This document shows, piece by piece, positions 8,722 to 11,280 of a stretch of DNA of 64,000 nucleotides. Under the pieces are notes generated by a model that was not told the origin of the DNA, made no database searches, and was given only the letters and a program-made list of their open reading frames with translations. The DNA is taken from IMG/VR virus record IMGVR_UViG_3300045988_152430; one strand, 5' to 3'. This DNA is from a virus. Its lineage: Duplodnaviria; Heunggongvirae; Uroviricota; Caudoviricetes. Made by a program: the position numbers and the translations under genes. The stretch's first letter is position 1. Every line of letters starts with the position of its first letter.

Positions 8722-9423
8722 TTATTCTGATTCTCGCTCAAAAAATGAGCTGATAAGGGGGAGCCAATCCTCTGACACTTCGCGAGGTCGCGGTTTGCCG
8801 TGGAAAAAGATTATTCGGCAGTCTTTTGGTAATGCCCCATTCCCCCTGGAGTAACGCGCGCTCGCATATTTTGAACCAGGTTCCACAACATCGGCCTTGT
8901 AACTTACAAACCATCCTGGATACAGATCCTGAAATGCTGGTGTATCATCGCCCATAACCTTTCGTAAGAACCCCTGGTCACCCCAGCACTCAGTAGTGAC
9001 ACAACGAGAAATCCAACCTTCCGGATCTTGCCAGAATGAACTCCAGATATGCGCTTTAACACTATTTGGTATCCACAGGGCACCGCTACCACGATATTGT
9101 GGATGGTAAAAATCCCTAAGCATGGTGAAGCTGGTTGGTGGATGCTCTAGGATTGGGCGTATATCACCGGCAATAACCGTGTCCAAATCCAGATAGAACA
9201 GATCATCGGTTATATCCGGTCGGAACAACTCGATTTTCGCCCACCAGCCACGGCACTTTTGCCACTGGTTGATCAATGGGATAACTTTGACGCCAGGTAC
9301 ATGTAAACACTTCAGGTCTGTCAGGCAAATAATTTCATAGTCTTTTGGCAGTTGATTAACCAGCCACTGCACATCGGAAGCGTTATAGTCACCACCAGAG
9401 CGAAGAACTAAAGCAATCTTCAT
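8722..9423 (-). CDS. Glycosyltransferase-like protein with DxD motif (233 aa)
   Basis: [11 protein letters not shown] resembles the GT-A DxD nucleotide-sugar binding motif; otherwise unassigned. Confidence 0.45.
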
Positions 9424-10112
9424 GCTGCACCATCACCTTTCACTTTCATCAATGTCAGGTTTCCGCAAAATACGGCACCAGTGTCGATATACTGCTGATT
9501 CCAGAATGTCTTCGGGCTTTTCACCGGAGTGTGACCAAAGATAAAACGATCTGCGCCCGAAATTTCGCCACCAATATCATCCATCGAATCACTGATACGC
9601 TCGCGCGCCCAGACAACGTTGAAAAGCGGCACCTCCTTACCGAATTGGTATTCATTATCCGGATAGTCGGCATGGGCTATAACGATAGTTTCTTGCCCGG
9701 TGTTCAACTCAATGATATAGGGCAGACGCTTTACCAGCTCCACCAGCGCCCTGGCTAATATTTCCTGATCAGTGTCCAGCATGAAGAACCATTGTCCGCC
9801 ATTCATTAGCCAGTTATTCACGTTGCCATCAGGACTTAACGCATCGAGCATCAACCGCTCATGGTTCCCCATCACTGCCCTGAACCAGGGCATCTGCAAT
9901 AGTTCCAGACATTCGACATTTTCAGTACCGCGATCGATAAGGTCGCCGACCGATATCAGTAAATCCTGCGCCGGGTCAAAATCCACACGATGGAGTTCGG
10001 ACATCAGTCTGGTGTAGCAACCATGCAGATCACCAACAACCCAGACATTCCTGTATTTGGTACCGTCGATACGGTGATAAATTGTGGGTGCCATCATGTA
10101 TTCTTCAGCCAT
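9420..10112 (-). CDS. Ser/Thr protein phosphatase, PPP family (lambda-phosphatase-like)
   Basis: Canonical metallophosphatase motifs GDLHG, GDLIDRG, GNHE; P1 carries such a gene (ppp) as recalled. Confidence 0.85.
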
Positions 10113-10720
10113 TCTTTAAGAGTCATCTGCGGAATACCTCCCATTTTCCCGCATGAAACAACGTCAATCTGTTCACGCGCAGACTGGAATAACAAAGGCA
10201 GGTGACTTAGATTTTTTGGCGTGCCGCCGGAGTGAACGCGTAGTTCTTGCGTAGCGTCAACGCCCACCAGAGCTACATGTTTGAATCCGATATGGAAAGC
10301 CAGGTTCAGAGCACCATATGCACTATTGCCGCTGGCAATTTCATTCTCATCTTCGCAAAGGCCGAAATGTGCGGACCAGCGCCACGCCCACCACTCGGGA
10401 GAATTCGTATTTTTTGGCTCCATGCCGCGTTCAGCCACACGACGGAAGCACAGAACGCCATCTCTGACTTCACGTTCTTTAACATCGGGTAGTGCCATGC
10501 AATAACAAACACCACGGCGACGGCGGCCACGACCAACGCGCCGCATATTGTCTGGGGATGGATCAAGGGTGAAAAAATAAGAAGCGCGGTTCAGCCAGTC
10601 GATGGCCCCATTGACCGCTATAATCGGCACTCCGCGCGGCGCAACAAAGTTTGCGGCGCTTGGGCCACTGCCGACGATAATAACGCGATCACTGCCTCTA
10701 AATTTATTCTTGGGAAACAT
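10094..10720 (-). CDS. GSGPS-motif protein, paralogue 1 (208 aa)
   Basis: N-terminal [10 protein letters not shown]...IIAVN; paralogous to the adjacent upstream gene; start overlaps it by about 100 nt in another frame. Confidence 0.5.
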
Positions 10721-11280
10721 TGAATTGCACTGCTCCTACTTGCATTCAAAATATGTAAATCTGCGTGTTTTTTGCGGGTATCCAGGAACTGCTGTTGCCA
10801 TTTTGAAATAGACACCTGCGTTGGATTCCGTAGGGCTTGAGGGTGCGCGCCATGCCAATGAAGGCCGTTTTGCAGAGAACAGTCATAGCCGACTAATACC
10901 ACTACTTCAGCCCCTGATTCAGCAGCCAGACTGATAGCCTGCGCGCCGCTATTTACCCCTTCCGCCGGTCCACAATATCGCCTGTACTCCAACGAAAATG
11001 ATTTCGCCGCCGCCAGGTTGGCTGTCACTTTGCGGAACCTCCCTCCCGGTATGGTGGAACCGTATTGCTTCCACCATGACAAATCACCGGCGTATAAGGC
11101 ATAAATGTCATCGAACATCTGCCAGGAATTGTTAACCGCGATGATTGAACAGCCAGTTTTTTCTATAGCAGCACAGTCCTCACGAGTGAGTGACGGACCG
11201 CTACCGACACAAAAAACAGTCCTAGTCGCCCTGGGTGGTATGTTCATTCTCAGCTGCAAATTCAGCCTCCAGGCGAGCAT
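10618..11280 (-). CDS. GSGPS-motif protein, paralogue 2 (220 aa)
   Basis: N-terminal TVFCVGSGPS...IIAVN; tandem paralogue; motif reminiscent of MptE-like/DUF115 nucleotide-binding proteins (uncertain). Confidence 0.5.
   Translation of the reverse strand: MLAWRLNLQLRMNIPPRATRTVFCVGSGPSLTREDCAAIEKTGCSIIAVNNSWQMFDDIYALYAGDLSWWKQYGSTIPGGRFRKVTANLAAAKSFSLEYRRYCGPAEGVNSGAQAISLAAESGAEVVVLVGYDCSLQNGLHWHGAHPQALRNPTQVSISKWQQQFLDTRKKHADLHILNASRSSAIQCFPRINLEAVIALLSSAVAQAPQTLLRRAECRL

What the first reader, a model, noticed from the sequence alone, without database searches (positions are those of the whole stretch)
8722..11280. Candidate modification cluster: DxD glycosyltransferase-like gene, Ser/Thr phosphatase and tandem overlapping GSGPS paralogues
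Four consecutive minus-strand genes form a compact unit: a DxD-motif protein, a confident PPP-family phosphatase, and two paralogous roughly 210-aa proteins sharing the N-terminal G-S-G-P-S ... IAVN signature. The second paralogue starts about 100 nt inside the first in a different frame. The GSGPS signature is reminiscent of MptE-like/DUF115 nucleotide-binding proteins. Together with the GT-B-like gene after ban (17215-18213) this hints at a sugar or nucleotide modification function, possibly acting on host surface structures or signalling.
Basis: partly seen in the sequence, partly recalled or inferred. Interest (0 to 1): 0.5.

Follow-up and report, generated by a model that had tools for sequence, protein, structure and literature searches.

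The report
Phage P1 sugar-transferase gene module
The four genes are pmgO, pmgP, ppp and pmgQ of phage P1: three of them are an uncharacterised sugar-transferase module found in hundreds of phages of Gram-negative bacteria, often beside the head genes, while the phosphatase is an unrelated insertion; what the module glycosylates is still unknown.

Summary
The window is phage P1 (99.7% identical). The finding covers pmgO, pmgP, ppp and pmgQ, and every sequence observation holds. The 103-nt out-of-frame pmgO/pmgP overlap is real and is not a frameshift artefact.

- **Ppp** is a lambda-type Ser/Thr phosphatase.

The new result is that O, P and Q travel together without ppp:
- They co-occur in lambdoid prophages and in phages of Alpha-, Beta- and Gammaproteobacteria, Bacteroidota and Gemmatimonadota.
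- They occur as natural fusions (O+P, Q+O, P+Q, Q+P+methyltransferase).
- They are often joined by sugar-tailoring methyltransferases, and in some phages by a homologue of P1 Dbn, the GT-B gene after ban.
- In many environmental phages the module lies between the major capsid gene and the head-tail connector genes.

Ppp occurs alone in phage D6 and is a lineage-specific insertion.

Best reading: a late-expressed cytoplasmic glycan-building module, most likely decorating virion proteins, possibly using host CMP-Kdo. LPS-core remodelling is the main rival. All four genes are dispensable for plaque formation.

The parts
10618..11280 (-). pmgO: minimal Maf / Cst-sialyltransferase / MptE-like (DUF115) fold protein, 220 aa. 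G26-S-G-P-S30, N50, N110-S-G112 and G131-Y-D133 are conserved, as is an invariant H141-W-H143-G motif. The true start may be M12 (11247).
10094..10720 (-). pmgP: second, divergent DUF115-fold protein, 208 aa. G17-S-G-P-S21, G131-N-S133, G153-V-D155 and H173 are invariant.
   Evidence: hhalign to the PmgO family 98.2%, E 6e-14; 570 representative clusters among 1.84 billion; relative P0336 passes the Pfam MptE-like gathering score.
10618..10720 (-). 103-nt dual-coding overlap, with pmgP in the -1 frame of pmgO. The first 14 pmgP codons overlie the conserved C-terminal element of PmgO (residues 188-202). The next 20 codons, which include PmgP's GSGPS motif, overlie PmgO's non-conserved tail.
   Evidence: Overlaps of 40-94 nt are conserved in enterobacterial relatives and 4-13 nt in distant ones. 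A natural O+P fusion protein exists (P0051/L104).
9420..10112 (-). ppp: lambda NinI/PrpA-type Ser/Thr metallophosphatase. It is inserted between pmgP and pmgQ only in the P1 lineage.
   Evidence: absent from the module elsewhere; present alone in phage D6; non-essential.
8722..9423 (-). pmgQ: GT-A, GT8-like (glycogenin / LgtC / Skp1 alpha-GalT type) retaining glycosyltransferase, 233 aa. DxD is at residues 79-81 (nt 9181-9189). The GWWAK, GDQ and FHGxPRP motifs are conserved.
11222..11377 (-). pmgN: small first gene of the operon (51 aa, GTG start). Function unknown. It overlaps the annotated pmgO start.
   Evidence: (P1 annotation mapped to the window).
11421..11437 (+). C1 repressor operator Oppp (Op83), at the predicted promoter PpmgN upstream of pmgN-pmgO-pmgP-ppp-pmgQ. 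Four mismatches to the operator consensus.
   Evidence: annotation; sequence read directly. The stronger operators Op86a/b lie at 8704-8720 (-) and 8655-8671 (+), just downstream of pmgQ.
17215..18213 (-). dbn: GT-B (GT4-like) putative glycosyltransferase, 332 aa. It is separated from the trio in P1 but contiguous with it in other phages, so it is a probable fourth member of the module.
   Evidence: Glycos_transf_1, 23.8 bits, below the cut-off; homologues in EP_H11 lie between P and Q (6e-96), next to the L157 Q-O fusion (3e-38), and near the module in L002 and L018 (1e-60).

Best explanation
pmgO, pmgP and pmgQ encode a conserved, soluble glycan-building module carried by phages of Gram-negative bacteria. 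dbn, elsewhere in P1, is probably a fourth member.

Shown:
- PmgQ is a GT8-type retaining hexosyltransferase with a DxD metal site.
- PmgO and PmgP are two diverged copies of the minimal Maf / Cst-II / MptE nucleotide-sugar-binding fold.
- The three genes are inherited together, are fused in various pairs in other phages, and are frequently accompanied by sugar-tailoring methyltransferases.
- ppp is a separate lambda-type phosphatase gene that was inserted between pmgP and pmgQ in the P1 lineage.

Inferred:
- The overlap couples translation of PmgP to PmgO, and the two work as a complex.
- The Maf-like enzymes use a CMP-activated ulosonic acid. In E. coli K-12 the only one available is CMP-Kdo. 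PmgQ and Dbn use UDP- or other NDP-hexoses.
- The module is expressed after C1 derepression and from the late promoter upstream of pmgL.
- It builds a short glycan on a phage component, most likely virion structural protein(s), as an accessory decoration that is not needed for plaque formation in the laboratory.
For: Fold and family:
-.

Module conservation without ppp:
- C. rodentium phiNP prophage, order O-P-Q.
- Zhongshania, Commensalibacter, Brevundimonas, Sinomicrobium, Methylophilaceae and Longimicrobiales loci.
- 51 of 80 diverse IMG/VR loci that carry Q also carry a DUF115-like gene within 4 kb.

Natural fusions:
- O+P (P0051) and Q+O (L157).
- P+Q, Q+P, Q+P+methyltransferase, methyltransferase+P and P+second DUF115.

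Glycan-tailoring partners:
- FkbM, Methyltransf_24/25 and sulfotransferase-like genes; 33 of 80 loci have a methyltransferase within 3 kb.
- Dbn lies inside the block in EP_H11.

Late or virion context:
- Major capsid gene upstream in 25 of 39 loci with enough flank; head-tail connector or head-completion gene downstream in 22 of 52; both in 13 of 31.
- Martelella prophage: the module lies between capsid and head completion.
- Lambdoid prophages: between the lysis genes and terminase.
[quoted passage not shown] Late promoter LPpmgL and a C1 operator lie upstream.

Donor precedent:
- Maf (PF01973) enzymes transfer Kdo from endogenous CMP-Kdo to Ser/Thr of a protein in E. coli BL21 (bioRxiv 10.1101/2020.06.03.131540).

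Dispensability, as for other decoration systems:
-.

Virion glycosylation by phage-encoded GTs is established for mycobacteriophage Che8 (cited in PMC11256854 and PMC12619734).
Against: - No acceptor has been identified and no glycan is known on P1 virions. The P1 virion proteome paper mentions no glycosylation: a search for 'glycos' gave zero hits.
- Context is not uniform. In the large lytic phages EP_H11 and IME392 the block sits among DNA ligase, Pol X and RNA polymerase genes. In lambdoid phage Chlobot a lone Q homologue sits at the integrase/tail-fibre moron site.
- GT8, GT4 and Cst/WaaZ-like enzymes are also exactly the families that build LPS/LOS outer cores.
- All identified hosts are Gram-negative. 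That fits an LPS acceptor as well as it fits a CMP-Kdo donor.
- The fold of PmgO is shared with pyrophosphokinases (MptE, thiamine pyrophosphokinase), so transferase chemistry is inferred, not shown.
- The P1 proteins score below the Pfam gathering threshold.
Confidence: 0.42

Rival explanations
1. LPS/LOS core remodelling. The module adds sugars (hexose, Kdo-type) to lipid A-core at the cytoplasmic face of the inner membrane during lytic growth. This masks or truncates the LPS-core receptor of P1, so that progeny are not lost on debris or on already infected cells.
For: - There are weak WaaZ signals: NCBIfam TIGR04437 at E 0.1, and a faint Pfam WaaZ_KDO_III hit on the O+P fusion protein.
- All known hosts are Gram-negative.
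- No membrane or carrier-lipid enzymes are needed.
- P1 adsorbs to the LPS core (established knowledge).
- A lone Q homologue sits at a classic lysogenic-conversion site in phage Chlobot.
Against: - The P1 operon carries a C1 operator, so it should be off in lysogens. That is unlike serotype-converting genes.
- Elsewhere the module sits in late head or lysis-terminase operons. At that stage only newly made LPS could be altered, shortly before lysis.
- hhalign of both families against E. coli WaaZ is weak (probability 15-19%), and PmgQ against WaaJ gives 41%.
- Single deletions show no plaque phenotype.
Confidence: 0.25
2. The module glycosylates some other acceptor: a host protein (takeover or anti-defence), a small molecule, or a nucleic acid.
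For: - In EP_H11 and IME392 the block lies in a replication/early-type region.
- The acceptor is simply unknown.
Against: - P1 and the lambdoid carriers have no hydroxymethyl-pyrimidine pathway, so DNA glycosylation lacks a substrate (established knowledge of P1 DNA).
- There are no hits to defence or anti-defence models (PADLOC).
- The recurrent head-gene context is not explained.
Confidence: 0.15
3. PmgO and PmgP are not glycosyltransferases but MptE/TPK-like pyrophosphokinases, or inactive nucleotide-binding scaffolds. Only PmgQ would transfer sugar.
For: - The Pfam family is named after MptE.
- PmgP lacks the HWHG motif of PmgO, and the two have different invariant His positions.
Against: - The N-terminal GxGPS and SG...GxD motifs align colinearly with Cst-II.
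- Constant linkage and fusion to a GT8 enzyme and to sugar methyltransferases argue for glycan assembly.
Confidence: 0.1
4. Ordinary neighbours with no shared function: four unrelated accessory genes that merely sit together in P1.
For: - All are non-essential.
- ppp is indeed unrelated.
Against: O, P and Q are linked across phyla and across unrelated phage types, and occur as multiple independent domain fusions.
Confidence: 0.03

Closest known systems
Maf flagellin nonulosonic-acid O-glycosyltransferases (Pfam PF01973, e.g. Magnetospirillum Maf, PDB 5mu5)
   Same: - Same superfamily by Pfam.
- Cytoplasmic, soluble enzymes that glycosylate proteins on Ser/Thr and can use host CMP-Kdo in E. coli.
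   Different: - PmgO and PmgP are about 200 aa, essentially the central domain alone, without the flagellin-binding N- and C-terminal domains of the 600-aa Maf proteins.
- They are phage-borne, occur as a diverged pair, and always accompany a GT8-like enzyme.
- No nonulosonic-acid biosynthesis genes were seen nearby.
- The P1 proteins score below the Pfam gathering threshold.
Campylobacter Cst-I/Cst-II sialyltransferases (CAZy GT42), the basis of the RefSeq/PHROG label 'alpha-2,3-sialyltransferase'
   Same: - Colinear N-terminal G-x-G-P-S-L and S-G...G-x-D motifs.
   Different: - Sequence similarity is not significant (E 0.25).
- The catalytic His equivalence was not established.
- E. coli K-12, a normal P1 host, makes no CMP-sialic acid, so the literal annotation is unlikely to be right.
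CAZy GT8 retaining glycosyltransferases (glycogenin, LgtC, Skp1 alpha-galactosyltransferase, WaaJ/WaaO)
   Same: - PmgQ has the GT-A fold with DxD and a C-terminal H-G-x-P-R/K-P motif.
   Different: - No hit to any Pfam family at E <= 1.
- 14-16% identity to GT8 structures.
- Shorter (about 200-230 aa).
- Acceptor unknown.
Mycobacteriophage virion glycosylation (Che8 and relatives; Freeman et al. 2023, as cited in PMC11256854 and PMC12619734)
   Same: Phage-encoded glycosyltransferases that decorate capsid and tail-tube subunits. They are non-essential accessory genes.
   Different: - Different hosts (Actinobacteria against Gram-negatives).
- In those phages the genes are described as lying near the right end of the genome, not in the head block.
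- Glycosylation has been demonstrated there and not here. I could not read the primary paper.
Serotype-converting phage glycosylation systems (GtrABC, O-antigen modification)
   Same: Phage genes that alter a host surface glycan.
   Different: - Those use membrane proteins and undecaprenyl-phosphate sugars and are expressed in the lysogen.
- This module is soluble, has no Gtr-like genes, and sits in C1-repressed or late operons.

Membership tests
PPP-family Ser/Thr phosphatase (lambda PPase / PrpA-PrpB / NinI) | Metallophos domain above the Pfam threshold | tested here: met
   PF00149, 59.4 bits against a cut-off of 21.5. NCBIfam PrpA/PrpB-type models at E 5.9e-82 and 9.9e-72, below the equivalog cut-offs. 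PHROG NinI-like at E 5e-113.
PPP-family Ser/Thr phosphatase (lambda PPase / PrpA-PrpB / NinI) | Signature motifs GDxHG, GDxxDRG, GNHE | tested here: met
   [16 protein letters not shown] and MGNHE are read directly in the translation.
Pfam MptE-like / DUF115 (PF01973; includes Maf) | Match to the family model above the gathering score (34.6 bits) | tested here: not met
   PmgO scores 23.4 bits and PmgP 20.9 bits, C-terminal motif only. 35 of 37 and 38 of 42 family members match at E <= 0.01. One PmgP relative (P0336) reaches 44.1 bits over profile positions 15-166. So these are superfamily members that lie outside the curated family boundary.
Pfam MptE-like / DUF115 (PF01973; includes Maf) | Modified GT-A / Rossmann-like fold of the Maf central domain | tested here: met
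   [not shown]
Pfam MptE-like / DUF115 (PF01973; includes Maf) | Catalytic acidic residues and Ser equivalent to Maf E324/D415 and the conserved Ser | tested here: inconclusive
   Invariant D66, S111, D133 and S135 (PmgO) and D53, S133 and D155 (PmgP) are candidates. No residue-level structural superposition was available.
CAZy GT42 sialyltransferase (Cst-I/II) | Significant sequence similarity and a catalytic His (His188 of Cst-II, recalled from memory) | tested here: inconclusive
   Profile against Cst-II gives E 0.25-0.8 in two colinear motifs. PmgO has invariant H141 and H143 and PmgP has H173, but their equivalence is untested.
CAZy GT42 sialyltransferase (Cst-I/II) | Use of CMP-Neu5Ac as donor | not testable with these tools
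   No sialic-acid synthesis genes were seen in P1 or among the recurrent neighbour gene families, but nucleotide-sugar synthesis genes were not searched for directly. K-12 lacks CMP-Neu5Ac (established knowledge).
CAZy GT8 / Glyco_transf_8 | GT-A fold closest to GT8 structures | tested here: met
   [not shown]
CAZy GT8 / Glyco_transf_8 | DxD metal-binding motif | tested here: met
   D79-L80-D81 is invariant in 53 sequences and aligns with the DxD of 6mw5.
CAZy GT8 / Glyco_transf_8 | Match to the Pfam PF01501 model | tested here: not met
   No Pfam family at E <= 1 for PmgQ. Only the family profile reaches GT8 structures (E 1.7e-7).
CAZy GT8 / Glyco_transf_8 | C-terminal His metal ligand in the H-x-x-G-x-x-K-P-W motif | tested here: inconclusive
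   F-H208-G-K-P-R-P is nearly invariant. It aligns to the ...PKPW segment of 6mw5, but the His columns are offset by two residues in the HMMER alignment.
Phage virion-glycosylation systems (Che8 type) | Glycan covalently attached to capsid or tail subunits, dependent on the phage GT genes | not testable with these tools
   Only context evidence is available: the head-gene neighbourhood in 13 of 31 to 25 of 39 loci.
Lysogenic-conversion LPS modification systems | Expression in the lysogen and membrane-bound Gtr/Wzy/Oac-type components | tested here: not met
   There is a C1 operator at the operon promoter and no membrane GT genes in the module. It lies in late operons in other phages.

The most novel reading that the evidence does not exclude
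Phage P1 and several hundred other phages of Gram-negative bacteria O-glycosylate their own virion proteins in the cytoplasm. The glycan would be short and contain Kdo, made from host CMP-Kdo and UDP-hexose. It would be built by a heteromeric complex of two minimal Maf-like enzymes (PmgO and PmgP, translationally coupled through the gene overlap) with a GT8-like enzyme (PmgQ) and a GT4-like enzyme (Dbn). This would be the first virion glycosylation system in Gram-negative phages and a natural Ser/Thr-O-Kdo protein modification.
Probability: 0.18. Interest if true: 0.78.

Novelty: new variant of a known kind. Interest (0 to 1): 0.5.

Why it matters
P1 is one of the most used phages in genetics, yet these "putative morphogenetic" genes have never been given a function. 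The databases carry only homology labels, one of which ("alpha-2,3-sialyltransferase") is probably wrong for a K-12 phage.

Three things follow from recognising that pmgO, pmgP and pmgQ (with dbn) form a widely distributed, fusion-linked glycan-building module, often embedded in head-gene blocks:
- The question becomes directly testable with the existing P1 deletion mutants and mass spectrometry.
- If the target is the virion, it would extend phage particle glycosylation from mycobacteriophages to Gram-negative phages. That matters for phage immunogenicity, stability and therapy.
- If the target is LPS, it would be a new receptor-masking strategy used during lytic growth.

The minimal Maf-like enzymes could also be useful tools for Kdo or ulosonic-acid protein glycoengineering.

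Tried and rejected
1. **Frameshift artefact for the O/P overlap: rejected.** Both ORFs are full length against their homologues, and the arrangement recurs in relatives that share only 41-58% identity.
2. **Programmed -1 frameshift making an O-P fusion: not supported.** P1 has an RSV-like A_AAT_TTA heptamer in the O frame within the overlap, and natural O+P fusions exist. But no slippery site is conserved in the C. rodentium, Pantoea or Chimaeribacter relatives. Translational coupling is the simpler reading.
3. **Direct homology to E. coli WaaZ (Kdo III transferase): inconclusive.** hhalign probabilities were only 15-19% against the single sequence.
4. **Defence or anti-defence models (PADLOC):** no hits.
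5. **Single-sequence searches of the PDB:** nothing significant. Profiles were needed. The PmgP profile found nothing in the PDB.
6. **First viral-contig scan with the PmgP alignment:** returned only P1-like duplicates. A re-rooted PmgQ alignment was needed to reach diversity.
7. **afdb50 fold library:** unavailable.
8. **Freeman et al. 2023:** the primary paper on virion glycosylation is not held.
9. **DNA hypermodification:** considered and set aside, because P1 and the lambdoid carriers lack hydroxymethyl-pyrimidine pathways.
10. **Literature searches for pmgO, pmgP and pmgQ:** gave only essentiality tables and a transcriptome mention.
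Full report
**Identity of the region.** The window is bacteriophage P1 or a near-identical relative. Bases 8600-11450 match P1 (AF234172, NC_005856) at 99.7% and vB_EcoM-813R1 at 99.9%. The four minus-strand ORFs of the finding are pmgO (10618-11280), pmgP (10094-10720), ppp (9420-10112) and pmgQ (8722-9423).

In the P1 annotation they follow the small gene pmgN. Upstream lie a predicted sigma-70 promoter with a C1 repressor operator (Oppp/Op83) and, further up, the late promoter LPpmgL. 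Two more C1 operators (Op86a/b) separate pmgQ from pmgR-pmgS-pap. I found those operators directly at 8655-8671 and 8704-8720. Op83 is at 11421-11437, with four mismatches to the consensus.

**The observation.**
- The genes are tightly packed: O/P overlap 103 nt, P/ppp overlap 19 nt, ppp/Q overlap 4 nt.
- Both 210-220 aa proteins carry V-G-S-G-P-S ... I-I-A-V-N near the N-terminus.
- Their pairwise similarity is weak: BLASTP aligns 36 residues at 39% identity, E 0.004.
- Alignments of 37 PmgO-family and 42 PmgP-family sequences match each other over 161 columns with hhalign probability 98.2%, E 6e-14. Each protein also cross-hits the other's PHROG family. They are old, diverged paralogues.
- Ppp is a clear lambda/PrpA-type metallophosphatase (Pfam 59.4 bits; GDLHG, GDLIDRG and GNHE motifs).
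- The D79-L80-D81 of PmgQ is invariant in 53 homologues.

**The overlap.** pmgP's ATG lies at codons 187-188 of pmgO, in the -1 frame.
- The first 14 pmgP codons encode its poorly conserved N-terminus. They overlie the conserved C-terminal element of PmgO (F189 nearly invariant; the L-E-x-x-L helix).
- The next 20 codons include PmgP's GSGPS motif. They overlie an 18-19 residue PmgO tail that is not conserved and is modelled with low confidence.
- The same arrangement occurs in the lambdoid prophage phiNP of Citrobacter rodentium (94 nt), where the automatic gene call had cut off the conserved N-terminus of the PmgP homologue. It also occurs in a Pantoea P1-like plasmid (49 nt) and in Chimaeribacter (40 nt). 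More distant relatives have 4-13 nt overlaps, always in the same relative frame.
- It is therefore a genuine, conserved coupling of the two genes and not a sequencing frameshift.
- P1 has a retrovirus-like A_AAT_TTA heptamer in the pmgO frame inside the overlap, but no slippery site is conserved in relatives. I do not propose programmed frameshifting.

**What the proteins are.**
- *PmgO/PmgP and Pfam.* Pfam MptE-like (PF01973) is matched by 35 of 37 and 38 of 42 family members at E <= 0.01. The P1 proteins stay below the gathering score. One PmgP relative passes it. The PmgO profile also gives weak but colinear matches to the G-N-G-P-S-L and S-G...G-I-D motifs of Cst-II.
- *Database labels.* RefSeq and PHROGs already label these genes 'glycosyltransferase' and 'alpha-2,3-sialyltransferase'. 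The latter is unlikely to be literally true, because E. coli K-12 makes no CMP-sialic acid.

**The module is O-P-Q, not O-P-ppp-Q.** I annotated related loci with HMMs built from the three alignments.
- In the C. rodentium prophage the genes are contiguous as O-P-Q, between the lysis cassette and terminase.
- O, P and Q also co-localise in Zhongshania, Commensalibacter, Brevundimonas, Sinomicrobium (Bacteroidota; order O-Q-P), a Methylophilaceae MAG (P-Q only) and a Longimicrobiales MAG (P and Q only). None of these has ppp.
- ppp sits between P and Q only in P1-like elements. In the P1 relative D6 it occurs without O, P or Q, among lambdoid nin-type genes.
- A scan of IMG/VR with a re-rooted PmgQ alignment found more than 567 matching stretches. 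Of the 80 diverse loci kept, 51 have a DUF115-like gene within 4 kb and 33 a methyltransferase within 3 kb (FkbM PF05050, Methyltransf_24/25). A sulfotransferase-like gene recurs in seven of the analysed loci.

**Natural fusions tie the parts together.**
- O+P (P0051) and Q+O (L157).
- P+Q (P0300, P0368), Q+P (P0389), Q+P+SAM-methyltransferase (P0348), methyltransferase+P (P0384) and P+second DUF115 (P0417, P0425).

The PmgP family itself is small: 570 representative clusters among 1.84 billion.

**dbn.**
- Dbn (17215-18213) has sub-threshold Glycos_transf_1 hits.
- A homologue lies inside a contiguous, overlapping O-P-Dbn-Q block in E. coli phages EP_H11 and IME392 (E 6e-96).
- Another lies immediately upstream of the Q-O fusion in L157, and others lie about 3 kb from the module in two enterobacterial loci.

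**Where the module sits.**
- In the environmental phages it typically lies inside the head-gene block. An HK97-type or gp13-type major capsid gene is upstream in 25 of 39 loci with enough flank. A gp6-like connector, head-completion or HK97-gp10-like gene is downstream in 22 of 52. Both are present in 13 of 31. A Martelella prophage shows the same pattern.
- In lambdoid prophages it lies at the end of the lysis cassette, before terminase.
- There are exceptions. In EP_H11/IME392 the block is among DNA ligase, Pol X and RNA polymerase genes. In phage Chlobot a lone Q homologue sits at the integrase/tail-fibre moron site.
- Every host that can be named is Gram-negative.

**Function.**
- *Shown:* the three (probably four) proteins have glycosyltransferase folds, are co-inherited and fused, and travel with sugar-tailoring enzymes. 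No membrane, carrier-lipid or nucleotide-sugar synthesis genes turned up among the recurrent neighbours.
- *Inferred:* they assemble a short glycan in the cytoplasm from host nucleotide sugars. For the Maf-like pair the only CMP-activated ulosonic acid in K-12 is CMP-Kdo. Maf enzymes have been shown to transfer Kdo from endogenous CMP-Kdo to Ser/Thr of a protein in E. coli BL21 (bioRxiv 10.1101/2020.06.03.131540).
- The late or head-gene context, the C1 operator (off in the lysogen) and dispensability for plaques (CRISPRi EOP 0.7-1.4, PMC10695390; knockouts) together favour an accessory decoration of virion proteins. This would be analogous to mycobacteriophage virion glycosylation.
- I put this specific reading at about 0.4. 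The broader statement, 'conserved phage glycan-building module, ppp not part of it', I put at about 0.85.

**Rivals.**
- *LPS-core remodelling (about 0.25).* The enzyme families mirror the waa locus, P1 binds the LPS core, and the hosts are Gram-negative. Late expression, C1 repression and the weak WaaZ/WaaJ comparisons count against it.
- *Another acceptor, such as a host protein, small molecule or nucleic acid (about 0.15).* This cannot be excluded. DNA glycosylation lacks a substrate in P1.
- *PmgO/PmgP as pyrophosphokinases or scaffolds rather than transferases (about 0.1).* This is allowed by the fold alone.

**Novelty and value.** The genes and their homology labels are already in the databases, and no paper in the searchable library assigns them a function. 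What is new here:
- the O-P-Q(+Dbn, +methyltransferase) module is delimited and ppp excluded;
- it is widely distributed and fused;
- it has a recurrent head-gene context;
- the gene overlap is conserved;
- the hypothesis is concrete and testable with existing P1 mutants.

I rate it a new variant of a known kind (phage-encoded glycosylation), with interest about 0.5.

Noticed in passing
window 10695-10701 (minus strand), inside the pmgO/pmgP overlap: A canonical X_XXY_YYZ heptamer, A_AAT_TTA (the Rous sarcoma virus type), lies in the pmgO reading frame, where a -1 shift would enter the pmgP frame. Natural O+P fusion proteins exist in other phages. The heptamer is not conserved in relatives.
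   Followed up: partly
window 17215-18213 (-), dbn: P1 Dbn is a GT-B (GT4-like) putative glycosyltransferase with sub-threshold Pfam hits. Its homologues are embedded in, or adjacent to, the O/P/Q module in EP_H11/IME392, L157, L002 and L018. In P1 it is separated from the trio by the baseplate/tail genes.
   Followed up: partly
window 11444-12022 (-), pmgM: PmgM has a VRR-NUC nuclease domain (Pfam 21.2 bits, just below the cut-off; PHROG 'Holliday junction resolvase'). It is more likely a DNA-processing enzyme than a morphogenetic protein.
   Followed up: no
window 6579-7085 (-), pap: The 'acid phosphatase' Pap matches the HAD phosphatase domain of polynucleotide kinase-phosphatase (PF25109, E 7.8e-12) and PHROG polynucleotide-kinase families. 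With Ppp, P1 therefore carries two phosphatases in this region. A nucleic-acid end-repair role is conceivable.
   Followed up: no
window 11222-11377 (-), pmgN: CRISPRi knock-down of pmgN lowers plating about 70-fold, although the deletion is viable (PMC10695390). pmgN is the first gene of the operon and overlaps the annotated pmgO start. The true pmgO start may be M12 (11247), because residues 1-15 are unconserved and have low pLDDT.
   Followed up: partly
window 4415-5140 (-): This 241-aa ORF in the pmgT/U/V region carries an Ead/Ea22-like domain (PF13935, E 1.3e-16), a lambdoid early-region protein family of unknown function.
   Followed up: no
L186 (Escherichia phage Chlobot) 6001-6720: A solitary PmgQ homologue (36% identity) sits between the integrase and the tail-fibre/lom genes of a lambdoid phage. 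This is a typical lysogenic-conversion site, so some members of the family may act on host surface glycans.
   Followed up: no
L003 (C. rodentium prophage phiNP) 9911-10531: The public gene call for the PmgP homologue (176 aa, start at 10001) removes the conserved GSGPS N-terminus. The ATG at 9911 gives a full-length 206-aa protein that overlaps the upstream gene by 94 nt. Many database entries for this family are probably truncated in the same way, and many carry the typo 'norphogenetic protein'.
   Followed up: yes
window 6563-6579, 8655-8671, 8704-8720, 12328-12344, 22751-22778, 26284-26300, 41430-41446, 43487-43503: Nine matches to the 17-bp C1 operator consensus (0.28 expected by chance) mark the C1-controlled operons across the window.
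   Followed up: partly
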